A stretch of 64,000 bases of DNA from a virus. Below the pieces are notes generated by a model. That model had not been told where the DNA came from. It made no database searches and saw only the letters and a list, made by a program, of their open reading frames with translations. Location of the stretch: the IMG/VR virus record IMGVR_UViG_3300030493_000012; one strand, 5' to 3'. Position numbers and translations under genes: made by a program. The stretch's first letter is position 1, and each line of letters starts with the position of its first letter. Below, piece by piece: positions 3,476 through 13,974 of this stretch.

Positions 3476-3844
3476 ATGGAAAGATTTATAAGAATAAAAG
3501 AAGGTCTTATATTAAACTTTAAAACTCTAACTTGGAATGATGGCTGGGAATTTGAACGTCCAAGTTTGATGTTGTCTCCAATTATCAGATGCTGGGAAAG
3601 GCAAATGTGTCACGAACAAATGGTAGAAAACGTTCTGATTGATGCTGTCGTCGAAGGATTTCTAAAAGATGAAAGTTTTGAGGAAACTTGGGGATGGAGA
3701 GGTTATAATTTAAAATATTTACAACGAAAATTTCGAGAATCGTTAGCCGGAAAGTCCTTTCCAAAGGTTAATTATATAGCAGAACAAAGTTCAGCAGAAA
3801 TTATCAGAGACGAAGATGATGAATTAGCTTGGGAAATATTATGA
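3476..3844 (+). CDS. hypothetical protein
   Basis: 122-aa ORF; its stop overlaps the ATG of the PHP gene (ATGA). Confidence 0.6.
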   Translation: MERFIRIKEGLILNFKTLTWNDGWEFERPSLMLSPIIRCWERQMCHEQMVENVLIDAVVEGFLKDESFEETWGWRGYNLKYLQRKFRESLAGKSFPKVNYIAEQSSAEIIRDEDDELAWEIL

Positions 3845-4614
3845 TTCAGCCTTATTTTAGCTCAAATTATTCGATTGGCCGCTCTTTATTTACTTTAGAG
3901 CCACCAGAAGAGATTAAAAACAACTCACCAGTTTCGCTGTTTTCTGTCGCCAAGCAAGAAAAACTAGATAAAATTGTTTTAGTTGATTCCTCGATGACAG
4001 GCTTTATTAAAGCTCACCTTGAGGCTCAAAAGCAAAATATTCAGTTAATGTATGGTATTAAGTTTATTGTGTGCCACGATATTAATGACAAATCAGACGA
4101 AAGCCGCAAAACAGAATCTAAATTAATTGTATTTATGAAAAATTCGGCGGCTTATTCTGAAATGTGTAGATTGTATTCCAAAAGCTGGGTTGATGGAAAG
4201 TATTATACAAATAGGCTGGACTGGAAATATTTGAATGAAACAAAAAGCGCGAATTTTAGTTATGCCGTGCCTTTTTACGACGGCTTTATTCATCTAAATA
4301 CTTATGGAAACGGCCAATCTGTTCCTGATATTGCAAAATTAGAGCCAACTTTCTTCACTGAGGAACATGAGCTACCAATTGATAATTTGTTACGAAAATC
4401 AGTTCTAAAATACACAGAGCAAAATAAGTACGCAACAGTTGAAATGCACAGAACTTTGTATTTGAATAATGATGACTTTTTGGCTTTGCAAGTTTTAAGG
4501 CTGGCCACAGGCCGAGGCGGCTCAACAGATAAACCAAGTATTGATAAGCCTAACATTGATGGCTATGCAAGCAATAAGTTTAGTTGGCAGTATTATAAGG
4601 AAACAAAATTATGA
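3841..4614 (+). CDS. stand-alone PHP domain of DNA polymerase III alpha, metal ligands degenerate
   Basis: FSSNYSIGRS matches HxHSxYSLLD. KIVLVDSSMTGFIKAH...NIQLMYGIKF matches ALAITDH..G.V.F...GIKPIIGCE. It lies 1.6 kb upstream of a dnaE that lacks PHP. Confidence 0.75.
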   Translation: MIQPYFSSNYSIGRSLFTLEPPEEIKNNSPVSLFSVAKQEKLDKIVLVDSSMTGFIKAHLEAQKQNIQLMYGIKFIVCHDINDKSDESRKTESKLIVFMKNSAAYSEMCRLYSKSWVDGKYYTNRLDWKYLNETKSANFSYAVPFYDGFIHLNTYGNGQSVPDIAKLEPTFFTEEHELPIDNLLRKSVLKYTEQNKYATVEMHRTLYLNNDDFLALQVLRLATGRGGSTDKPSIDKPNIDGYASNKFSWQYYKETKL

Positions 4615-4910
4615 CAAAATCAATCAGTTGGTTACTTGAAAACGAGGATAACTTTTCGATATTACTAGGAAAACTCCTTTTATTCGACAGAAACTCTCCA
4701 TATTTTTGGATGAGTGGACTAGTATCTGGATTAAGATTAATTAGCCCACAAGACGAAAAGATGTCGGTTTTACAGATAACGCATCCAATAAATCATAAAA
4801 AGATGTACGCCGTTCTTGACAGAGAAGATTTAATAAAGCATCTTAAGGCATGTGTTGAGATTATCGGCAATGAGGAAAGCGAAAATCTAGTTATTGATTT
4901 TAATCATTAA
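4611..4910 (+). CDS. hypothetical protein
   Basis: 99-aa ORF overlapping the PHP stop. Confidence 0.55.
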   Translation: MTKSISWLLENEDNFSILLGKLLLFDRNSPYFWMSGLVSGLRLISPQDEKMSVLQITHPINHKKMYAVLDREDLIKHLKACVEIIGNEESENLVIDFNH

Positions 4911-5100
4911 AACTGTGAAACCTGAAATTGGCAAAAAATATAAATTAAAAGTTAACGAAGAAGAACTAGAAGGAGTCTGTCGTCGTTATCATGAGAATTA
5001 TTACGGATTAGATATATGGTATTTTGACGGACTTACAAAATTTACCGATTACAAAATTTGTGGCTTTCTTGACAATGAGATTATTGAGGAAATTAAATAA
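4894..5100 (+). CDS. small hypothetical protein, start uncertain
   Basis: 68-aa ORF filling the gap before the exonuclease. Confidence 0.45.
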   Translation: MILIIKTVKPEIGKKYKLKVNEEELEGVCRRYHENYYGLDIWYFDGLTKFTDYKICGFLDNEIIEEIK

Positions 5101-5103
5101 ATT

Positions 5104-5763
5104 ATGCAAGACCTTGGAGAGAAATTACTGAGATTTCGGATTAATAAGGATTTAAAGTACCTGATTTTTGATTGCGAATCGGAATCCCTCAATTTAGGCT
5201 GTAATAATAGACCTTGGAACTTATCTTGGCTAGTCATTGAAAATGGCCAAATCAAAGAAGAATTTGATTTATATCCTTTTATTCATGATTTACAATTAAG
5301 TGAAGGCGCGGCTACAATCACAAGGTTTGATTATAATGATTATAAAAGAAAATCAACTCCAGCCATTGATTGTTATAATACTCTGGCTAAGTACATCTAT
5401 AATCCAGAATATTTGGTGGTTGGGCAAAATTTACTGAATTTCGACTGCTATATGCTGGCTAATTTGCAAAAATATCTTGGAATCAAGCCTGACTTTTCGT
5501 ACATTGAAAGAATCTACGACACAAAAAGCATAAACTTCGCATGGCAAACAGGAGTGCCTTTTCCTAAAATCAAAGATGAAATTCCAGCGTGGATGATAAA
5601 AATGTGCTCTTCTTATAAAAAAGGAATTAAAACTTCAAATATGGCGACGGCAAAAATGTTAGGTGTTAATTACGATATTGCACACGCTCATGAGGGTTTA
5701 AGTGATTGTAAATTGAGCAATGAAATATTTAAACAGTTGATTTGGAAATTAGAAGTATGGTAG
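5104..5763 (+). CDS. DEDDh 3'-5' exonuclease (DnaQ/epsilon-like)
   Basis: ExoI IFDCESE, ExoII GQNLLNFD, then YDT, and ExoIII HEGLSDC. Confidence 0.85.
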   Translation: MQDLGEKLLRFRINKDLKYLIFDCESESLNLGCNNRPWNLSWLVIENGQIKEEFDLYPFIHDLQLSEGAATITRFDYNDYKRKSTPAIDCYNTLAKYIYNPEYLVVGQNLLNFDCYMLANLQKYLGIKPDFSYIERIYDTKSINFAWQTGVPFPKIKDEIPAWMIKMCSSYKKGIKTSNMATAKMLGVNYDIAHAHEGLSDCKLSNEIFKQLIWKLEVW

Positions 5764-5766
5764 AAT
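5737..5766 (+). promoter_or_regulatory. sigma70-type promoter TTGATT-N18-TAGAAT with extended TG, probably leaderless
   Basis: TTGATT at 5737-5742, TGG-TAGAAT at 5758-5766, ATG 5773 six nt after the -10. Confidence 0.55.
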
Positions 5767-5772
5767 AGCATT

Positions 5773-6213
5773 ATGATTAATCTAACAAAAGAACAAATTG
5801 TTGAATCTTTGGAGCGCCTAAAAGATTATTCTCAATGGATGTACTTTTCGGAACTCTGTGGAGAGATGCTTAAAAATCAAAAAGTCACCTTTGAAAACCA
5901 TACTTTTTATTTGTCATTAGCGAAAGACGGATTAATTGAAATGGTTCTTGAAGACGGTGTTATTGGAAGATTTGATTTTCGAATACAAAGAATTGCGCCA
6001 CTAAATAATTTAGTTAACAATGTGGATTTTCAAACAAAACTTATTAGTGTTACTCGCGACGACAGTGAGCATATAGAGTATTTTAATAAAAATGAAGTAA
6101 GAATGTTTATTTGCTCTTTTATTCAAAGGCAAATGGCGTTTACGTTTTTCGCCAGAATGCAACCAGAAACAATTAATGGAATATCAGAGTATTTGGTCGC
6201 TTGTAACAAATAA
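5773..6213 (+). CDS. hypothetical protein
   Basis: 146-aa ORF immediately upstream of dnaE-N. Confidence 0.6.
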   Translation: MINLTKEQIVESLERLKDYSQWMYFSELCGEMLKNQKVTFENHTFYLSLAKDGLIEMVLEDGVIGRFDFRIQRIAPLNNLVNNVDFQTKLISVTRDDSEHIEYFNKNEVRMFICSFIQRQMAFTFFARMQPETINGISEYLVACNK

Positions 6214-6215
6214 TT

Positions 6216-7994
6216 ATGTTCGACAAATTTGAAAAATACGTTTTTCCAAAACTTGGTTATATTAGAATTCCAAAGGCGACTCAAAATAAAGAGGACTTGG
6301 ACACTTTAGGAATTACAACAAAGATTTCTGACGACGAATTTCTATACAAACTAGCTTATTCTGGCCTCGAAAACAAGATTAAAAACAATTTAATTCCAGC
6401 CGACAAACATCAGCAATATAAAGATAGAATTGAATATGAGTATGCTGTAATTTCTAAATTGAAATTTTCCAGCTATCTTTTATTGGTTCGAGATGTCTTG
6501 AATTTTTGCTATAAAAACAATATTTTAACTGGTTATTCGAGAGGAAGTTGCGGTGGCTGTTTAATCCTTTATTTACTAGGTGTTATCAAAATAGACCCAA
6601 TCAGACATGATTTGTTATTTGACCGCTTTATTTCGGCGGCAAGAACAGAAACTAAAGAATTTGATGGCGAGACGTATATTTTATCTGGCTCATTATGTGA
6701 CTTTGACGGGGACTCGGATAGAAACAAAAAACATCTCGTCAATGAATTTCTTGAGTCATTATATCCAAACAGAACGGCGGCAATTAAGAATGTATCAACT
6801 TTTCAGTCTAAAGCACTAATTAAGGATGTTCTTAAAATTTACGAAAACACATCAGAGGAAGACTCTAAAAATGTTTCTGACCTAATTGAGACTGTTTTCG
6901 GACATGTAACTTCTATTGAAGATAGTATTAAAAACAATCCTGCATTTAAAGAGTGGGCCGAAGAGCATAAAATTACTATTTCAATAGCCTCAAAATTAAT
7001 GGATTTTCCAAAAAATGCCAGCGTTCATGCTTCTGGTATTTTATTAAGCGACGAAATTATTGAAGATGTTATTCCGCTTGAATTGGCGTCTGATGGCAGA
7101 ATTGTCACTTGCTATGACATGAATGACGCTCAAATGTTTGGAATTAAGTACGATAATCTTGGACTAAAGAATTTAGGTATTATTCAAGAATGTCTCCACA
7201 TGGTTAAAAAAGACATGATTGATATCAATGTCAATGACCCAAGTATCTATCAGTTTTTGAATACAAGAGACCAATTTTACGGCATTTTTCAGGCAGAAGA
7301 AGGGCTAGGCAAACAGGTTTTAAAAAAACTAGAATGCCAAAATATTGATGACGTAGCTATTTCTATTGCTGTCGGTCGCCCCGGCTCTATGGCTTTTATT
7401 GACGATATTGTTTTAAATAAGAAAAACGGAAATTCCACAAGCGTTGAACCTAGAATTGACGAAGTTTTGAAACCTACCTATTCCATCGTAATTTACCAAG
7501 AGGAATTAATGGAATTATGTAAAGTCATGGCAAACTTCAATCCACAGGAGCGAAATGGAGTGCGGGCTGCGACAGGAAAAAAGGACGTTGCTAAAATGAA
7601 GTCCTATAAAGACAAATTCATTAAGCAAAGTATCGAAAACGGTTTTAAAGAAAGCGTTGTTAATGATATTTGGGATATTTTTGAGAAGAGCGGAAATTAT
7701 TTGTTCAACCGCTGTATTTTTGAAGAATGCGAGGTTGAAACAAAAAATGGAACTAGAAAAATTAAAAACATTAAAACCGGCGATAAAATAAAAGCGTTTA
7801 ACTTAAAAAAGAGAATAAGCGAATTTGTCGCTGTTAAAAATGTATTTATAAATGAAAAGCCGGTATATGAAATAACGCTTGAAAATGGAAGGTCAATAAC
7901 CTGTTCGTTAGAGCATAAAATTCTGTGTGAAGACTTTTTAATGCATACTTTACGAGATATTATGATAAATAATCTCAAAATTGCTAGTTCATAA
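6216..7994 (+). CDS. dnaE: DNA polymerase III alpha, N-terminal half (palm/thumb/fingers) fused to split-intein N fragment
   Basis: RIEYE..I.KLKFSSY, RGSCGG, DLLFDRF, catalytic DFDGD, HASG, DNLGL, GIFQ, RPG, YQEE and GNYLFNR, followed by the intein Cys1. Confidence 0.95.
   Translation: MFDKFEKYVFPKLGYIRIPKATQNKEDLDTLGITTKISDDEFLYKLAYSGLENKIKNNLIPADKHQQYKDRIEYEYAVISKLKFSSYLLLVRDVLNFCYKNNILTGYSRGSCGGCLILYLLGVIKIDPIRHDLLFDRFISAARTETKEFDGETYILSGSLCDFDGDSDRNKKHLVNEFLESLYPNRTAAIKNVSTFQSKALIKDVLKIYENTSEEDSKNVSDLIETVFGHVTSIEDSIKNNPAFKEWAEEHKITISIASKLMDFPKNASVHASGILLSDEIIEDVIPLELASDGRIVTCYDMNDAQMFGIKYDNLGLKNLGIIQECLHMVKKDMIDINVNDPSIYQFLNTRDQFYGIFQAEEGLGKQVLKKLECQNIDDVAISIAVGRPGSMAFIDDIVLNKKNGNSTSVEPRIDEVLKPTYSIVIYQEELMELCKVMANFNPQERNGVRAATGKKDVAKMKSYKDKFIKQSIENGFKESVVNDIWDIFEKSGNYLFNRCIFEECEVETKNGTRKIKNIKTGDKIKAFNLKKRISEFVAVKNVFINEKPVYEITLENGRSITCSLEHKILCEDFLMHTLRDIMINNLKIASS
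7713..7991 (+). mobile_element. split intein N fragment (IntN, 93 aa)
   Basis: Block A CIFEECEVETKNG..KIKNIKTGDKI and block B YEITLENGRSITCSLEHKIL, then a stop. The pattern resembles gp41-type split inteins. Confidence 0.9.
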
Positions 7995-8832
7995 CAACAG
8001 AAGCATGTGTGTCGCCTCTTTTTATTCCATTTATCGTCATGTACGGGATTGAGTATTTTTTTGATATATCAATCATCCTAATTCCGTCTTTGATGTCTTT
8101 TTTTATTTTTTTTACAAAATCTTCTGTATATTTATGTTTTTCTTCTTGTACTTTTCGGTCTAATATTTCTTGTATATTATCGTCAACTTTTATATGAGAC
8201 CATGTTTTTCCTCTTTTAATATTACTTATGACAGTCGTTGATACTCCAAACTCTTTAGAAAGATTTTTAAGCAGTTCTCCTTTTGAGAGCCTGGTTTTTA
8301 TGTCTAAAACTTTTAAATTTGTTAGTTTTGACATTTCTGACATTTCTCCGGTATGCCTTTCTCTTATTCTTTGTCTCCCCTCTTTTGATATTTCGCAATT
8401 TAATGCTCTAAATGCTGATTTTGAAATATTAAACCCATTTTCACCAAAAGGCTTAACATAATCAAGAAGTTCTTGCTCTCTGTTTTTTAATGCTATTCTA
8501 TTATCGTTTAATATTTCTAATATTCCGAATTTAAAATTTTCAATTCCATGTTTTTTAACAGAATTTACAAGCGGAAAATTATTTCTAACCTGTCGCCTAT
8601 TAAAGATTCCCAAATAAGATAATAGTCTATTCCACAAGCAAACGGCACTTCCGATATAGATTCTATTGTCTATTAAACTTAACCAAAAATAAATACCTGA
8701 TTTTCTTTTTAAAAAATCTCTGCATTCCGAGTTTTCCGAAAGCTCGATGTTGATAGTGTTTAATTTTATTTTGTTATTTGTGACCACCGAGCCTTTATCA
8801 AAAAACAATTGACAATACAACAATTTACTCAT
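7984..8832 (-). CDS. GIY-YIG homing endonuclease with two C-terminal HTH-like repeats
   Basis: KSGIYFWLSLIDNRIYIGSA...R...HGIENFKFGILE...REQELLD...GFN. C-terminal repeats DIKTRLSKG...LSKEFGVSTTVISNIKRG and KIKKDIKDG...ISKKYSIPYMTINGIKRG. ATG 8832 is preferred over GTG 8847. Confidence 0.9.
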   Translation of the reverse strand: MSKLLYCQLFFDKGSVVTNNKIKLNTINIELSENSECRDFLKRKSGIYFWLSLIDNRIYIGSAVCLWNRLLSYLGIFNRRQVRNNFPLVNSVKKHGIENFKFGILEILNDNRIALKNREQELLDYVKPFGENGFNISKSAFRALNCEISKEGRQRIRERHTGEMSEMSKLTNLKVLDIKTRLSKGELLKNLSKEFGVSTTVISNIKRGKTWSHIKVDDNIQEILDRKVQEEKHKYTEDFVKKIKKDIKDGIRMIDISKKYSIPYMTINGIKRGDTHASVVMN

Positions 8833-8837
8833 ATACT
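8809..8837 (+). promoter_or_regulatory. sigma70-type promoter TTGACA-N17-TATACT for dnaE-C, overlapping the 5' end of the antisense GIY-YIG gene
   Basis: TTGACA at 8809-8814, TATACT at 8832-8837, ATG at 8861. Confidence 0.75.
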
Positions 8838-8860
8838 GTATATACACGCAAATTTGTTAA

Positions 8861-8980
8861 ATGAATATAGAATTTTCAAAAATAAAATCAATTAAATCGC
8901 TTGGCGTAAAAAAAACCATTGATTTAGAGGTTGACAGTGAATTTCACAATTTTTACTGTGGAGATATTATTGTGAGCAAC
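8861..8980 (+). mobile_element. split intein C fragment (IntC, 40 aa)
   Basis: MNIEFSKIKSIKSLGVKKTIDLEVDSEFHNFYCGDIIVSN contains block F (D.EV...HNF) and a terminal Asn, followed by Ser+1. Confidence 0.9.
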
Positions 8981-10099
8981 TCTCACTCAGTTGGTTATGC
9001 ATATCTAACAGCCGCAACGACTTACCTCAAAGCCAACTATACAGTAGAATATTTTACTTGCTTGCTTAACTCTACTCAATACGAACAAAAACCAATCGAA
9101 GAAATCTCAAAAATTCAGTCTGAACTACCTTATTTTGGCATCAAACTCCTTCCTCCAGACCTTTTAAAATCAAATATTAAATTCTCTGTTGAGGATGGCA
9201 ATATAAGGTTTGGTTTGTCTTTTATTAAGGGAATTTCCGAAAAGACTATTGACAAAATTAATCAATTCAAGCGCCATTATTCTAATAAATTTGAGATATT
9301 TCAGGCGGCATCGGAGTCAGGTTTGTCAATTGGGCACCTTTCCTGCACAATCAAGTCGGGCGCGATGGATAGTTTTATTGATAATCCAGATAAACGTTCT
9401 AAATTATGCCTTGAGGCTCAATTATGGGGTTTATTGACAGACAGAGAGAAAGAATTATGTTTACAGTATGCTCAACAGTATGATTTTCAAATATTTAAGC
9501 TAGTCAAAGATTTAAACGAAAAACTTAAAAACGAAAAAAGCAAACCTTTAATCAAAGACTCAAGATTAGCCACGCTTAAAAAACATTATCTTCCATATAA
9601 AGAAATCTACGAACAAAACCATAAAAATGAAAAATTTTCAAATTGGTATTTTGAATATCAATTGCTGGGCTTTTCTTATTCTCGTACTTTAAAAGAAATC
9701 TTTTCGGAAAAACAACCCGACTTGTTGCAAATCAAGGACTTTAATGATACAAAACTCGAAAGAACAGGCCGAATTGTTGGAATTGTCAAAGAATGCAAAC
9801 TAACAACATCAAGAGAAAAGAAAACAAAGTATATTAGGCTCAACCTATTTGACGAAACTGGCGAAATTACAGTTTTGATGTTTAACACCAAAAAAGAGGA
9901 CAAAATTGAAGAATGCCTTGATTTAAATGGCAAATTACCTGACGAAAATGATATTGTTATTGTGCGAGGGACTAAAAAGAAAGATGTTATATTCGCAGAT
10001 GTTATTGCTAATCAGACATTTATGGTGTACAGTCGCTTAAGTGAATTGAAGTCAAAAAACCAACCAAAAGAAGAAGAAAAAACTATTGACATTGTTTAG
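8861..10099 (+). CDS. dnaE: split-intein C fragment fused to the C-terminal half of DNA polymerase III alpha (fingers, HhH, OB-fold)
   Basis: After the intein: SHSVGYAYL..T.YLKANY..EYF, LLPPDL..S..KF, IRFGLS.IKG, G.MD, and an OB-fold GRIVGIV...LFDETGEI. Confidence 0.95.
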   Translation: MNIEFSKIKSIKSLGVKKTIDLEVDSEFHNFYCGDIIVSNSHSVGYAYLTAATTYLKANYTVEYFTCLLNSTQYEQKPIEEISKIQSELPYFGIKLLPPDLLKSNIKFSVEDGNIRFGLSFIKGISEKTIDKINQFKRHYSNKFEIFQAASESGLSIGHLSCTIKSGAMDSFIDNPDKRSKLCLEAQLWGLLTDREKELCLQYAQQYDFQIFKLVKDLNEKLKNEKSKPLIKDSRLATLKKHYLPYKEIYEQNHKNEKFSNWYFEYQLLGFSYSRTLKEIFSEKQPDLLQIKDFNDTKLERTGRIVGIVKECKLTTSREKKTKYIRLNLFDETGEITVLMFNTKKEDKIEECLDLNGKLPDENDIVIVRGTKKKDVIFADVIANQTFMVYSRLSELKSKNQPKEEEKTIDIV

Positions 10100-10822: not shown

Positions 10823-10848
10823 GCCGCTCGTAATTGAGCGGCTTTTTT
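10823..10848 (+). terminator. rho-independent terminator
   Basis: GCCGCTC-gtaatt-GAGCGGC followed by TTTTTT. Confidence 0.85.
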
Positions 10849-10881
10849 GTTGTTTTTGTTAGTTCTAAGCGTATAATAGAC

Positions 10882-12816
10882 ATGCAAGAGCGAAAGAAAA
10901 GAGTTGGTTTTATAACATCAAGTTTATTGCTTAAAACAGGCTTTAGCACTAATGCCAAGGCTTTAATTCCATATCTATACTCAACCCAAAAGTACCAATT
11001 GTATCATCTAAATCAAGGAATATCGGATGACCCTAATTTTGGCCGCTTTCCTTGGAAGAATCAGGGTGTTTTTACTGATGGAACTTTTGATGCTGGTAAA
11101 TTTCAAGCCGACGATGGTTATAAAAGGTTTGTAAGCTACGGCAACTGTGCAGTCGAAAAGTTTATTATTGACAACAAATTGGATGTTGTTATTCATCAAG
11201 AGGATATATGGTCTTCTAGTGAGGAAGCCTATCTTAATTCTAAATGGTGGCCGTTTATGAAAGATAATTTTTTGAATCATTCAACTTGTGATTCATTACC
11301 AGTTTTGCCGATGTTTAAAACTTGGGCTGAAAAGTGTCCAAATGTATGGTTTTGGGCTTCTTTTGGTATCAAGGCTCTACATAAAGAAGATTTCAAGAAA
11401 TACGGTCATGTAAAACACGTTCCCGGCACTTTGGATGTTAATGATTATTATCCAATTACAGCCTTAGAAAAATACGAACTACGAAAACAATTCAAAATTG
11501 ACCAAGATTGCACTTTGTTTATTCAGTTAAGCAGAAATCAATTACGCAAATTGTTTCCAAATACATTAGAGTCTTTTGCTTTGTTTAAGAAGAAATATCC
11601 GCAATTAAAAGCTAAATTATTGTTTCATTGCAGTTGGTCTGAGCAAATGGGCTGGCCACTTGAAAGACTTTTGAAAGATTTTGGATTGGCTAAAGAGGAT
11701 GTTTTAACCACTTATTATTGTCGAAATTGCGGTAAATGGGAAGTCAAACCTTTTAGCGGAGAAGATCAAAATTGTCCGTACTGTCAAAAAGAAAAGTCTC
11801 AATTGACGGCAGGAATCACTAGCACGGTCAGCAACAAAGACCTGTCTAAGATTTATGGACTGTGCGACGCCTCTCTAAGTTGCTTCGATTCTGGCGGATA
11901 TGAGTACTCGACAATACAATCTTTACTATGCGGACTTCCTGTGTTGTGTTCTGAATACAGTGCTGGTGAAGATTTTATTAATAATGATTTTGTTTTTCCT
12001 CTTGATGGAACTTTCAATTTTGAAAAAAACACTGGCTTCAAAAAACATGTTCCAAATAACAATACAATAGTCAAGTTTTTCAAGACTATCTGTGAAATGC
12101 CAGTAAATAAAAGAAAAGAGATTGGCGAAAAAGGACGAAAATTCGCACTTGAAATGGCACATGTTAATAGAATAGGCAAAATCTTTGAAGATTGGATTGA
12201 TTCGCGGCCTTTAATTACTTGGGACTATAAATATCCTGAATACGATGCTAAAAATCCTAATGCTCAAATTCCTGATATTGCTGACAATAAAGAATGGCTC
12301 AAAACTCTATATTCTCAAATATTGAAAATGTCAGTTTCGGACGAGGATGAGGGCCTAAAATTTTGGTTGAAGAAATTAGCAGAAGGCGGTGATAGACAAG
12401 GTATTATAAACTTTTTTAGGGAGACCGGACTCAAGGAAAATCAAAAGAATCCAACAGTCATACCCTTTGAAGAAGTCCTAATTAAGAATGGCAAAAAACA
12501 TTTTCTAATTGTCATAAAAGAGGCTATTGGTGATATTATTAATGCCACAGCTTTGTTTGAGTCTTTTCGTAACTCATATCCAAGTAATGAATGGAACATT
12601 TATGTAGCCTCAGACCAACAATATCAAAGTTTGTATAATGGAAATCCTTATATTGACAAATTTTTGCCTTACCTGCCAATTTTTGATAATGAAATTTCTT
12701 TAACCGGGCATGGTAATAAAAAAGGTTATTTCCAAGGTTATTGCTTACTAACTGTAGCCACGCAAAAATGTCTTAATTATCTTACCAATAACAACATTCT
12801 ACTTCCTAAAACCTAA
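10882..12816 (+). CDS. GT-B (GT4-like) glycosyltransferase with zinc-ribbon insert, DUF4214-like helix bundle and C-terminal GT9 N-lobe
   Basis: TGFSTNAK, SRNQLRKLFP...F..F, YGLCD...EYSTIQSLLCGLPV and KFALE. Also CRNC...CPYC, LYSQIL...EGLKFW, and AIGDIINAT...SYP...NPYIDKF. The ATG at 10882 is preferred over the track start. Confidence 0.75.
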   Translation: MQERKKRVGFITSSLLLKTGFSTNAKALIPYLYSTQKYQLYHLNQGISDDPNFGRFPWKNQGVFTDGTFDAGKFQADDGYKRFVSYGNCAVEKFIIDNKLDVVIHQEDIWSSSEEAYLNSKWWPFMKDNFLNHSTCDSLPVLPMFKTWAEKCPNVWFWASFGIKALHKEDFKKYGHVKHVPGTLDVNDYYPITALEKYELRKQFKIDQDCTLFIQLSRNQLRKLFPNTLESFALFKKKYPQLKAKLLFHCSWSEQMGWPLERLLKDFGLAKEDVLTTYYCRNCGKWEVKPFSGEDQNCPYCQKEKSQLTAGITSTVSNKDLSKIYGLCDASLSCFDSGGYEYSTIQSLLCGLPVLCSEYSAGEDFINNDFVFPLDGTFNFEKNTGFKKHVPNNNTIVKFFKTICEMPVNKRKEIGEKGRKFALEMAHVNRIGKIFEDWIDSRPLITWDYKYPEYDAKNPNAQIPDIADNKEWLKTLYSQILKMSVSDEDEGLKFWLKKLAEGGDRQGIINFFRETGLKENQKNPTVIPFEEVLIKNGKKHFLIVIKEAIGDIINATALFESFRNSYPSNEWNIYVASDQQYQSLYNGNPYIDKFLPYLPIFDNEISLTGHGNKKGYFQGYCLLTVATQKCLNYLTNNNILLPKT

Positions 12817-12819
12817 TTT

Positions 12820-13974
12820 ATGCACTTGTGCGAGTCATATTCACTTCAGGCTGGGCAATACATTTCAAAACCTTTTATTGCCGAGGAATTTTTTCCTTTG
12901 CCTGTTGAAAAATACATAACCATCCATCCTCAAACCAAGCCATCAAAGACTTATGACCACTGGAATGAAGTTATTGATATTTTAGAGCCAATCTTAAAAG
13001 CCAATAATTTAACTTTAGTCCAAATCGGCGCAAAAGGCGATACTATCTTACCAAGATGCTATCATGTGCAAGGCGAAACAACCTTGAACCAATGTGCTTA
13101 TCTTGTCAAAAATGCCGTTCTACACTTGTCGGCTGATACGTTTTCAGCGCACCTAGCTGGACATTATAATATTCCATTGGTGGCTTTATATTCCAATAAT
13201 TACGTTCATAATGTCAGACCTTATTTTGGCGATAAATCCAAACAAATACTTTTAGAGCCAGATAGAACTAACTCGAAACCAAGTTTTGCTTATGAGGAAA
13301 ATCCTAAGACAATTAACACCATTAAACCCGAACTAATTGCCGCCTCTGTTTGTAAATTGTTAGATATTCCGTTTAATTTTGAATATCAAACTTTATCTTT
13401 TGGCCGCTCTTATGGTGGCCTATTGGTTGAAATTGTGCCAAATGCTCCGATTGACGTTAAATCAATGAATTTGAATAATGCAATCATGAGGATGGATTTG
13501 GTTTTTAATGAACAAACGCTTATTCAGCAGATGAGTAATTCCAAAGTCATTATTTATACCAATAAGCCAATTTCTAAAGATATTATTACCAAATTCAGAA
13601 CACAAATTGACGAAGTTATCTATATTGTTGATGATGTTCAAGATACAGAGTTTATTGAGTTTTTGCGTGATAATATTGTCAGATATGGTTTGATTAGTTT
13701 TTGTAAGGATGAAGACAAAATGAATGATTTGAAGCTCAAATACATGGATTTAGGCTTAATCCACAAACAGGAACCGCAAGTTGTTGAAAGTAAAGATAAT
13801 CTATACTACAAAACAACCAGATTTTTGTTCAATGGCCAAAAAGTTTATCCTTGTACAGCAGCATTTTTGGCTGACAAACCAATTCCAAGTTTACAATCTG
13901 AAATTTGTCCAATTATTGACAACGAAGAATTTTGGAAAGAGTCTGGATATTTTGCTTTTTTAAAGAAGGCTTGA
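12820..13974 (+). CDS. GT9 (heptosyltransferase-like) C-lobe plus unknown C-terminal domain
   Basis: YITIHP...KTYDHW..V, VQIG, GETTLNQCAYLVKNAVLHLSADTFSAHLAGHYNIPLVALYS. Confidence 0.75.
   Translation: MHLCESYSLQAGQYISKPFIAEEFFPLPVEKYITIHPQTKPSKTYDHWNEVIDILEPILKANNLTLVQIGAKGDTILPRCYHVQGETTLNQCAYLVKNAVLHLSADTFSAHLAGHYNIPLVALYSNNYVHNVRPYFGDKSKQILLEPDRTNSKPSFAYEENPKTINTIKPELIAASVCKLLDIPFNFEYQTLSFGRSYGGLLVEIVPNAPIDVKSMNLNNAIMRMDLVFNEQTLIQQMSNSKVIIYTNKPISKDIITKFRTQIDEVIYIVDDVQDTEFIEFLRDNIVRYGLISFCKDEDKMNDLKLKYMDLGLIHKQEPQVVESKDNLYYKTTRFLFNGQKVYPCTAAFLADKPIPSLQSEICPIIDNEEFWKESGYFAFLKKA

What the first reader, a model, noticed from the sequence alone, without database searches (positions are those of the whole stretch)
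6216..10099. Fractured dnaE: naturally split intein with an antisense GIY-YIG endonuclease between the halves
Seen in sequence: DnaE-N ends ...GNYLFNR|CIFEEC... (IntN, 93 aa, then stop). DnaE-C begins with a 40-aa IntC ending ...IIVSN|SHSVGYAY. Splicing would restore FNR-SHSVGY, the conserved DnaE FNKSH motif. A GIY-YIG gene fills the gap on the opposite strand. Established: fractured genes with split inteins and free-standing endonucleases are known in phage metagenomes (gp41, NrdJ, IMPDH, DnaE), mostly described with Vsr-like nucleases. The cyanobacterial DnaE intein inserts three residues earlier (before CFNKSH). Inference: this pair needs protein trans-splicing to make the replicase. Its site, Ser+1, penultimate Ser and antisense GIY-YIG partner make it a candidate new, possibly orthogonal, split intein.
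Basis: partly seen in the sequence, partly recalled or inferred. Interest (0 to 1): 0.85.

Follow-up and report, generated by a model that had tools for sequence, protein, structure and literature searches.

The report
Split-intein phage dnaE, backwards endonuclease
An uncultured phage encodes its DNA polymerase core as two genes that most likely must be stitched together by a split intein, with a selfish GIY-YIG nuclease gene lodged backwards between them; this layout is a known kind ("fractured gene"), and only the backwards orientation of the nuclease gene is unusual.

Summary
ORF 6216-7994 (+) is the DnaE palm and fingers followed by a 93-residue IntN. ORF 7984-8847 (-) is an intact I-TevI-type GIY-YIG homing endonuclease. 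ORF 8861-10099 (+) is a 40-residue IntC followed by the rest of DnaE.

Both exteins meet at one position of a phage DnaE profile, between K/R and S of the conserved FNKSH motif. The splicing residues Cys1, SxxH, block F Asp/His, terminal Asn and Ser+1 are present.

The intein is not a one-off. Among the 150 best DnaE relatives I count about 36 split, 27 contiguous and 64 intein-less forms at exactly this site. 37 IMG/VR loci carry it, with GIY-YIG (antisense), Vsr-like, LAGLIDADG, HNH or no nuclease at the break.

Four IMG/VR contigs share the antisense GIY-YIG layout, with 42-47% identical nucleases.

It is a fractured gene in the sense of Dassa et al. 2009, who already reported fractured DnaE and GIY-YIG cargo but with all genes on one strand. 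Antisense nucleases are published for contiguous inteins.

This scan has noted fractured dnaE, and one antisense fractured gene, on other DNA.

Verdict: real, a new variant of a known kind, of moderate interest. Splicing and homing are inferred, not shown.

The parts
6216..7712 (+). DnaE N-extein (residues 1-499): palm and fingers of Pol III alpha, ending ...GNYLFNR
   Evidence: Pfam PF07733 and PF17657. phrog_405 positions 319-793. Aligns to Taq DnaE 386-815. Palm aspartates D162, D164 and D313 are invariant in alignment A1.
7713..7994 (+). IntN: 93 residues starting at Cys1 (CIFEEC...), block B SLEH, then a TAA stop at 7992-7994
   Evidence: TIGR01445 intein_Nterm matches from residue 500, above its cut-off. 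phmmer hit to the gp41-1 intein 6qaz, E 3e-5. C500, S564 and H567 are invariant in 27 split relatives.
7984..8832 (-). Free-standing GIY-YIG homing endonuclease gene, 282 aa from the ATG at 8832 (the ORF is open up to a GTG at 8847). Its 3' end overlaps the IntN gene's 3' end by 11 nt.
   Evidence: Pfam PF01541. TIGR01453 81 bits. phrog_7168 and phrog_314 homing endonuclease. Aligns to the I-TevI catalytic domain 1ln0 with GIY, YIG, the Arg27 equivalent and GFN/GYN kept. 42-47% identical to antisense GIY-YIG genes at the same place in L004/L005 and L006/L008.
8809..8837 (+). Sigma-70-like promoter-like site (TTGACA, 17 nt, TATACT) inside the first codons of the antisense endonuclease gene, reading towards IntC-dnaE-C
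   Evidence: Best consensus match (11 of 12) in 7400-9400. Comparable plus-strand sites sit in the 5' part of the antisense HE gene in L004 (10 of 12) and L006 (11 of 12). These are consensus matches only; function is inferred.
8833..8860 (.). 28-nt divergent spacer between the endonuclease ATG and the IntC ATG. A TAA stop at 8858-8860 closes the IntC frame upstream.
   Evidence: Sequence read directly. L006 has a similar spacer sequence.
8861..8980 (+). IntC: 40 residues with block F (DLEVDSEFHNF) and block G (IIVSN), terminal Asn40 and penultimate Ser
   Evidence: phmmer aligns residues 5-40 to the C-terminal 35 residues of gp41-1, and also to the DnaB, DnaX and NrdJ-1 inteins; these hits are weak (E 0.04-0.5) but all are inteins. 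The same IntC pattern ending SN|SH is present in all 37 related loci.
8981..10099 (+). DnaE C-extein (372 aa) starting SHSVGYAY: end of the fingers, HhH and OB fold
   Evidence: Pfam HHH_6, and tRNA_anti-codon OB just below its cut-off. phrog_405 positions 793-1096. Aligns to Taq DnaE from S816.
3829..4614 (+). Context: the PHP domain of Pol III alpha is a separate gene, four genes upstream of the core
   Evidence: Pfam PHP 7e-11 and phrog_405 positions 66-288. No intein-like sequence was seen at this break.

Best explanation
This is a 'fractured' phage dnaE. A mobile cassette, made of a class-1 mini-intein broken at its usual endonuclease-insertion loop by a free-standing GIY-YIG homing endonuclease gene, sits between the K/R and S of the conserved fingers motif FNKSH.

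Two polypeptides are made: DnaE(1-499)-IntN(93 aa) and IntC(40 aa)-DnaE(372 aa). The intein halves associate into a Hint fold. Cys1 then makes the thioester and Ser+1 attacks it. Asn40 cyclises and the O-N shift leaves ...FNR-SHS..., an intact palm-fingers-HhH-OB polymerase chain.

The endonuclease is expressed on its own from the opposite strand. It most likely cuts endonuclease-free dnaE alleles of co-infecting relatives, so that repair copies the cassette in (homing).

Because the nuclease gene points backwards, the C half probably relies on a promoter embedded in the first codons of the nuclease gene, or on read-through across 866 nt of antisense sequence.

Shown: the gene anatomy, the exact junction, the conserved splicing and nuclease residues, and the recurrence of the layout in other phage contigs. 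Inferred: splicing itself, nuclease activity and its target, and the promoter.
For: Exact junction: both exteins abut at position 793 of phrog_405 and at Taq K815/S816. Intein-less relatives read YSFN(K/R)SHS... without a gap; I count about 64 among the 150 best representatives.

Intein identity: TIGR01445 matches from Cys500 above its cut-off. gp41-1 is the nearest solved structure for both IntN (3e-5) and IntC. Cys1, S564 and H567 are invariant in 27 split relatives. All 37 loci end SN|SH.

IntN-IntC complex: score 0.73 against a best control of 0.00; runs share at least 93% of contacts; partner pLDDT at least 71. That mark was reached by 51 of 78 solved complexes and 2 of 108 mismatched pairs. 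Split-intein complexes have been solved, so this pass may reflect likeness to them.

Contiguous relative: P0018 has a 135-aa mini-intein at the same site. It is 50% identical and colinear with IntN+IntC, with only a 2-residue gap at the break.

Endonuclease: TIGR01453 scores 81 bits, the I-TevI motifs are kept and the ORF is full-length. Genes 42-47% identical sit in the same place and orientation in L004/L005 and L006/L008, which argues for conservation by selection.

Promoter-like sites facing the C half lie inside the 5' part of the nuclease gene in all three diverged loci.
Against: The penultimate intein residue is Ser, not the usual His. This is family-wide and, from general knowledge, tolerated by some inteins.

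Block B is SxxH, as in gp41-1, rather than TxxH.

Pfam Intein_splicing is below its gathering score (19.9 against 35.8 bits), and the IntC-only matches are weak.

The promoter sites are consensus matches in AT-rich DNA and are not at identical positions in the three loci.

The catalytic Glu of the nuclease aligns one residue out of register with I-TevI E75, and the L006 orthologue has Lys at that column.
Confidence: 0.85

Rival explanations
1. The intein halves act only as a non-covalent clasp. The two DnaE pieces are held together by IntN-IntC association without splicing, comparable to the split Aeh1 NrdA assembled around a mobile-element remnant.
For: The penultimate His is missing (Ser instead) and block B is SxxH. 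Earlier notes of this scan describe splicing-dead intein tails on other fractured dnaE genes (e1-5929837, e1-5778618; unchecked leads). The predicted complex shows association, not chemistry.
Against: Every nucleophile and the terminal Asn are present and invariant or near-invariant across dozens of diverged split and contiguous relatives. Contiguous relatives at the same site must splice to give a working polymerase. gp41-1, the nearest solved intein, aligns S-E-E-H at block B and is reported as a fast splicer (the activity is from general knowledge).
Confidence: 0.08
2. The cassette is a fixed relic. The endonuclease no longer homes, being inactive or without remaining targets, and the split is simply inherited vertically.
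For: HE-less split alleles exist: L002, L007 and L037. L037 is sister to the GIY-YIG-bearing L004 at 100/97 support, which shows that nuclease loss happens. Nuclease remnants are seen in L009/L031. The L006 orthologue lacks the Glu column.
Against: The window's gene is a full-length 282-codon ORF with the GIY, YIG, Arg and Asn motifs and two C-terminal helix-turn-helix-like repeats. It is conserved along its whole length at 42-47% identity with orthologues. Five different cargo types occur within one intein family, which argues for ongoing turnover.
Confidence: 0.2
3. The break is an assembly or annotation artefact, or a contiguous 'non-canonical' intein read through on the sense strand over an antisense nuclease gene.
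For: Contiguous inteins with antisense endonuclease ORFs are known (bioRxiv 10.1101/2025.01.02.630785 citing Gorbalenya 1998).
Against: All three plus-strand frames carry 7-24 stops across the spacer, and IntN and IntC are in different frames. The same holds in L004 and L006. The 592-aa product is on record from three contigs. About 36 representative proteins end 92-106 residues after the junction.
Confidence: 0.01

Closest known systems
Fractured genes of Dassa, London, Stoddard, Schueler-Furman & Pietrokovski 2009 (PMC2677866), including their three DnaE loci
   Same: A conserved replication gene is broken in place into two genes. [quoted passage not shown] The source is phage-like metagenomic DNA. 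IntN (88-105 aa) and IntC (33-54 aa) sizes match, and the DnaE integration points differ from the cyanobacterial one.
   Different: That paper states that all three coding regions lie on the same strand, with a 27-51 nt non-coding region before the endonuclease gene. Here the endonuclease is antisense. Its 3' end overlaps the IntN gene by 11 nt and its start is 28 nt from the IntC start. Whether the FNK|SH site equals one of their DnaE-1/2/3 sites could not be checked, because no supplement is held.
gp41-1 split intein (PDB 6qaz, 6riz)
   Same: It is the nearest solved structure for both halves. It shares Cys1, SxxH at block B, Ser+1, similar fragment lengths and a phage metagenome origin.
   Different: Identity is only roughly one third over the aligned IntN part. 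The host gene differs (gp41 helicase). gp41-1 has a penultimate His (THN), whereas this family has Ser (VSN). Its published endonuclease lies on the same strand.
Cyanobacterial split DnaE intein (Ssp/Npu DnaE)
   Same: A split intein in the fingers region of Pol III alpha, in the intein hot spot described by Novikova et al. 2016 (PMC4760082).
   Different: Its site is four residues upstream (before CFNK; PMC2664965). It has Cys+1 rather than Ser+1. The two halves are at distant loci with no endonuclease, and it is cellular rather than phage-borne.
Non-canonical contiguous inteins with an antisense homing endonuclease ORF (Gorbalenya 1998, as cited in bioRxiv 10.1101/2025.01.02.630785)
   Same: The endonuclease is encoded on the strand opposite to the intein and extein.
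   Different: In those the sense frame stays open and the intein is contiguous, and the published cases are LAGLIDADG. Here the sense frames are closed, the intein is split and the nuclease is GIY-YIG.

Membership tests
Class 1 intein (Hint splicing domain) | Cys or Ser at intein position 1, directly after the N-extein | tested here: met
   Cys500 follows FNR. TIGR01445 aligns from it. It is invariant in 27 relatives.
Class 1 intein (Hint splicing domain) | Block B T/S-x-x-H | tested here: met
   S564-L-E-H567 aligns to gp41-1 S-E-E-H. S564 and H567 are invariant.
Class 1 intein (Hint splicing domain) | Terminal Asn followed by a Ser/Thr/Cys +1 nucleophile | tested here: met
   IIVSN|SHS. Every related locus ends SN|SH.
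Class 1 intein (Hint splicing domain) | Penultimate His in block G | tested here: not met
   It is Ser here and throughout the family. From general knowledge this residue is helpful but not obligatory, so it lowers the confidence only slightly.
Class 1 intein (Hint splicing domain) | Hint fold formed by the two halves | tested here: inconclusive
   The predicted complex scores 0.73 against a best control of 0.00 (mark reached by 51 of 78 solved complexes and 2 of 108 mismatched pairs). At least 93% of contacts are shared between runs and the partner pLDDT is at least 71. The pass may stem from likeness to solved split inteins. No fold search was run.
Class 1 intein (Hint splicing domain) | Protein (trans-)splicing activity | not testable with these tools
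   Needs co-expression and detection of the ligated product.
Fractured gene (Dassa et al. 2009) | Host gene broken into two genes kept in the original order, orientation and locus, each carrying one split-intein half | tested here: met
Fractured gene (Dassa et al. 2009) | Free-standing homing endonuclease gene between the halves | tested here: met
   GIY-YIG ORF 7984-8832.
Fractured gene (Dassa et al. 2009) | All three coding regions on the same DNA strand | tested here: not met
   The endonuclease is on the minus strand.
GIY-YIG homing endonuclease (I-TevI type) | Catalytic domain with GIY, YIG, Arg, Glu and Asn motifs | tested here: met
   PF01541 and TIGR01453 are above their cut-offs. The alignment to I-TevI 1ln0 keeps GIY, YIG, the Arg27 position and GFN. 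The Glu is one residue out of register.
GIY-YIG homing endonuclease (I-TevI type) | Separate C-terminal DNA-binding region | tested here: inconclusive
   Residues ~160-280 match the C-terminal parts of homing-endonuclease PHROGs (phrog_59, 6156) and hold two similar helix-turn-helix-like repeats. No curated domain model passes.
GIY-YIG homing endonuclease (I-TevI type) | Site-specific cleavage of the cognate empty allele | not testable with these tools
   Needs a cleavage assay.

The most novel reading that the evidence does not exclude
The antisense nuclease cassette is a distinct, self-sufficient form of fractured-gene element. It carries an outward-facing promoter that drives the downstream extein half, while its own transcription runs head-on into dnaE transcription. 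Polymerase maturation and nuclease expression would then be timed against each other. In addition, this FNK|SH intein family offers dozens of diverged natural split pairs (Cys1 or Ser1, Ser+1, penultimate Ser) that splice and are orthogonal to gp41-1 and Npu DnaE.
Probability: 0.2. Interest if true: 0.6.

Novelty: new variant of a known kind. Interest (0 to 1): 0.4.

Why it matters
For phage biology, the only replicative polymerase core of this phage would depend on protein trans-splicing, on top of a PHP domain that is already a separate gene.

For mobile-element evolution, one insertion site in one phage DnaE family shows side by side:
- intein-less alleles
- contiguous mini-inteins
- split inteins with four different nuclease families, in either orientation or fused to IntN
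- nuclease remnants
- nuclease-free split alleles

That is a natural series for testing how free-standing nucleases invade inteins, how split inteins arise and how they become fixed.

For protein engineering, the family is an uncharacterised pool of natural split inteins related to, but distant from, gp41-1. Some members have Ser1, so they may be cysteine-less.

None of this changes the known concept. It extends it.

Tried and rejected
- No near-identical DNA in the INPHARED phages.
- The single-protein scan of IMG/VR found nothing; the alignment-based scan then worked.
- The word-indexed protein search on the junction+IntN region returned only the protein itself; the HMMER representatives search was needed.
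- No whole genome is held for the window.
As a result there is no sample source, no read-level polymorphism and no RNA evidence.
- The supplement of Dassa et al. 2009 is not held, so their DnaE-1/2/3 sites could not be compared.
- A conserved TATnTACAC element upstream of IntC was tested as a phage promoter motif. It has only 3 matches in the window against 1.6 expected, so it is not significant and was dropped.
- The antisense 316-aa ORF in L015 has an HNH-like motif by eye but matches no Pfam or PHROG family; it is left unassigned.
- No paralogue of the GIY-YIG gene exists elsewhere in the 64-kb window.
- The host could not be assigned. The nearest isolated-phage DnaE is only about 31% identical.
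- Literature searches for an antisense nuclease in a split-intein DnaE found nothing. The library is incomplete, so this is weak evidence of absence.


Full report
**What is there**

The window is phage DNA. It encodes a tail protein J, a tail assembly protein and a large terminase. It is about 35% G+C and has no tRNA genes. No whole genome is held for it and it has no near match among deposited phages.

At 6216-7994 (+) lies a 592-codon ORF. Residues 42-476 are the Pol III alpha catalytic and finger domains (Pfam 7.7e-51 and 7.1e-31). The chain then reads ...GNYLFNR, followed by CIFEEC..., 93 more residues and a stop.

At 8861-10099 (+) lies a 412-codon ORF. Its first 40 residues end in IIVSN. 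It then continues SHSVGYAY into the rest of the fingers, the HhH domain and an OB fold.

Between them, on the minus strand, lies a GIY-YIG gene at 7984-8847. Its likely ATG is at 8832, giving 282 codons. It passes the curated cut-offs of Pfam PF01541 and of TIGR01453, the I-TevI-type group I intron endonuclease model (81 bits against 56).

**Is it more than chance?**

The phage DnaE profile phrog_405 is matched by the first ORF up to profile position 793 (residue 499). The second ORF matches from position 793 (residue 40). Against Taq Pol III alpha the two pieces meet at K815/S816 of the FNKSH motif.

The extra 93 residues pass NCBIfam's intein N-terminal model, starting exactly at the Cys. 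Their best solved relative is the gp41-1 split intein (E 3e-5).

The extra 40 residues give only weak hits, but all of them are C-terminal ends of inteins: gp41-1, DnaB, DnaX, NrdJ-1 and PolB16.

All plus-strand frames across the 866-nt spacer are closed by 7-24 stops, and the two halves are in different frames. This is therefore a split intein, not a contiguous intein with a hidden antisense gene.

**Relatives**

An HMMER search of 1.84 billion representative proteins and my parsing of the 150 best hits show four forms at this exact site:
- About 64 intein-less DnaEs reading YSFN(K/R)SHS...
- About 27 with a contiguous 128-156-residue mini-intein (FNK|C...SN|SH).
- About 36 that stop 92-106 residues after the junction, which are split forms like this one.
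- Five whose IntN continues into a further ~170-185 residues.

The contiguous mini-intein of P0018 is 50% identical to IntN+IntC. It is colinear with them, with a 2-residue gap exactly at the break.

Cys1 and the Ser and His of block B are invariant in 27 split relatives. Every relative ends SN|SH, so the penultimate Ser and Ser+1 are family traits. A few members start with Ser instead of Cys.

**Genomic context of relatives**

An alignment-based scan of IMG/VR returned 37 loci with the intein at this site. The content of the break differs between them:
- Twelve loci have a same-strand 314-333-codon ORF. The one tested (L001) has NUMOD3 and weak Vsr/MTES_1575-like matches, which is Dassa's Vsr-like class.
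- Four loci (one sequence type) have a same-strand LAGLIDADG gene.
- In L012, L022/L023 and probably L029, a NUMOD4-HNH module is fused in frame to IntN.
- L009/L031 keep a 93-codon nuclease remnant.
- L002, L007 and L037 have no nuclease and only about 20-40 nt between the halves.
- L013, L014, L016 and L032/L033 are contiguous inteins.
- L015 has an unassigned antisense ORF.
- L004/L005 and L006/L008 have an antisense GIY-YIG gene that is 42-47% identical to the window's.

The antisense GIY-YIG loci share the window's geometry. The 3' ends overlap convergently, and about 27-31 nt separate the divergent starts.

In an intein tree, the window groups (87/85 support) with L004, L006, L015, L037, L017 and L032. 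The HE-less L037 is sister to L004 at 100/97. Within one intein lineage the cargo has therefore been exchanged or lost.

**How it most likely works**

The two precursors associate through the intein halves. The predicted complex scores 0.73 against a best control of 0.00. At least 93% of contacts are shared between runs and the partner pLDDT is at least 71. That mark was reached by 51 of 78 solved complexes and 2 of 108 mismatched pairs. Because split-intein complexes have been solved, the pass may only reflect likeness to them.

The contact list pairs IntC residues 8-23 with IntN residues 540-555. The first 20 IntC residues carry a net charge of +4.

Standard class-1 chemistry would then join FNR to SHS: the Cys1 thioester, attack by Ser+1, Asn40 cyclisation and the acyl shift. 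This chemistry is inferred.

The palm aspartates are intact, so the product should be an active polymerase core.

The nuclease keeps GIY, YIG, the Arg27 equivalent and the GFN motif of I-TevI. A Glu lies one residue from the E75 position. Two helix-turn-helix-like repeats follow. It most likely cleaves nuclease-free alleles and spreads the cassette by repair, but the target is unknown.

The best sigma-70-like match in 7400-9400 is TTGACA-17-TATACT at 8809-8837, on the plus strand. It lies inside the nuclease's first codons, 24 nt before the IntC ATG. L004 and L006 have comparable plus-strand sites in the 5' part of their antisense nuclease genes (10 of 12 and 11 of 12).

I read this as a cassette-borne promoter for the C half. 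It rests on consensus matches only.

**Comparison with what is known**

Dassa et al. 2009 defined fractured genes. They listed three DnaE loci, with GIY-YIG and Vsr-like nucleases, at integration points different from the cyanobacterial one. They state that all three coding regions are on the same strand.

Novikova et al. 2016 describe the Pol III alpha fingers as an intein hot spot with several insertion points.

The cyanobacterial site lies before CFNK (PMC2664965).

Antisense nucleases are published for contiguous inteins (Gorbalenya 1998, as cited in the 2025 actinobacteriophage intein preprint).

I found no paper describing an antisense nuclease in a split-intein fractured gene, but the library is incomplete.

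Earlier notes of this scan record fractured dnaE with GIY-YIG on other DNA, and one fractured gene with an antisense nuclease in an archaeon. These are unchecked leads. They suggest the layout is not rare.

**Verdict**

It is a fractured gene of a known kind. It belongs to a large, apparently uncharacterised phage DnaE intein family. The backwards GIY-YIG gene is a recurring architectural variant.

Interest is moderate. The value lies in the natural series of alleles at one site and in a pool of new split inteins, not in a new principle.

Splicing, homing and the promoter remain to be shown. No read or transcript data could be obtained.

Noticed in passing
window 3829-6213: The PHP domain of Pol III alpha is a separate 261-codon gene (3829-4614; phrog_405 positions 66-288). 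Four genes separate it from the polymerase core, among them a DnaQ-like DEDD exonuclease (5104-5763, phrog_192). With the intein split, the polymerase is therefore spread over three genes. Many relatives also start at the core (~860-aa forms), while others have the PHP domain fused (~1250-1480 aa). No intein-like sequence was seen at this break.
   Followed up: partly
L012:8465-9310, L022:8402-9292 (also L023, L029): In these relatives IntN runs on in frame into a NUMOD4 + HNH_3 endonuclease module, and the IntC gene follows within about 6-620 nt. The result is a split intein whose N half is fused to its own nuclease.
   Followed up: partly
L015:8666-9613 (-): This is a second kind of antisense cargo at the same intein break: a 316-codon ORF with an HNH-like NIDHIIP motif by eye but no Pfam or PHROG match.
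   Followed up: partly
L012:9333-9935 and L030:9803-10930: DNA methyltransferase-like ORFs (a DPPW motif in L012; N6_N4_Mtase just below its cut-off in L030) sit between the split-intein halves in two relatives. The break can therefore collect cargo other than nucleases.
   Followed up: no
proteins P0033, P0046, P0093, P0104: Members of the same intein family at the same site start with Ser instead of Cys (SLCP..., SISL..., SIGA..., SLSP...). They may be cysteine-less at the splice junctions.
   Followed up: no
proteins P0068, P0092, P0116, P0128, P0138 and others: Some relatives carry a ~385-410-residue insertion a little upstream of the FNKSH motif. It is probably a second, larger intein at another fingers site.
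   Followed up: no
window 7713-7730 and 8954-8959: Block A reads CIFEEC (Cys1 and Cys6), and IntC has a Cys in HNFYC. The same pairing recurs in close relatives such as P0002, P0018 and L004. Whether these extra cysteines matter, for example through redox control, is unknown.
   Followed up: no
window 10834-13974: Directly downstream of dnaE-C lie a 660-codon glycosyltransferase-like gene (phrog_2170) and a 384-codon ORF. Both sit between the replication and tail modules.
   Followed up: no
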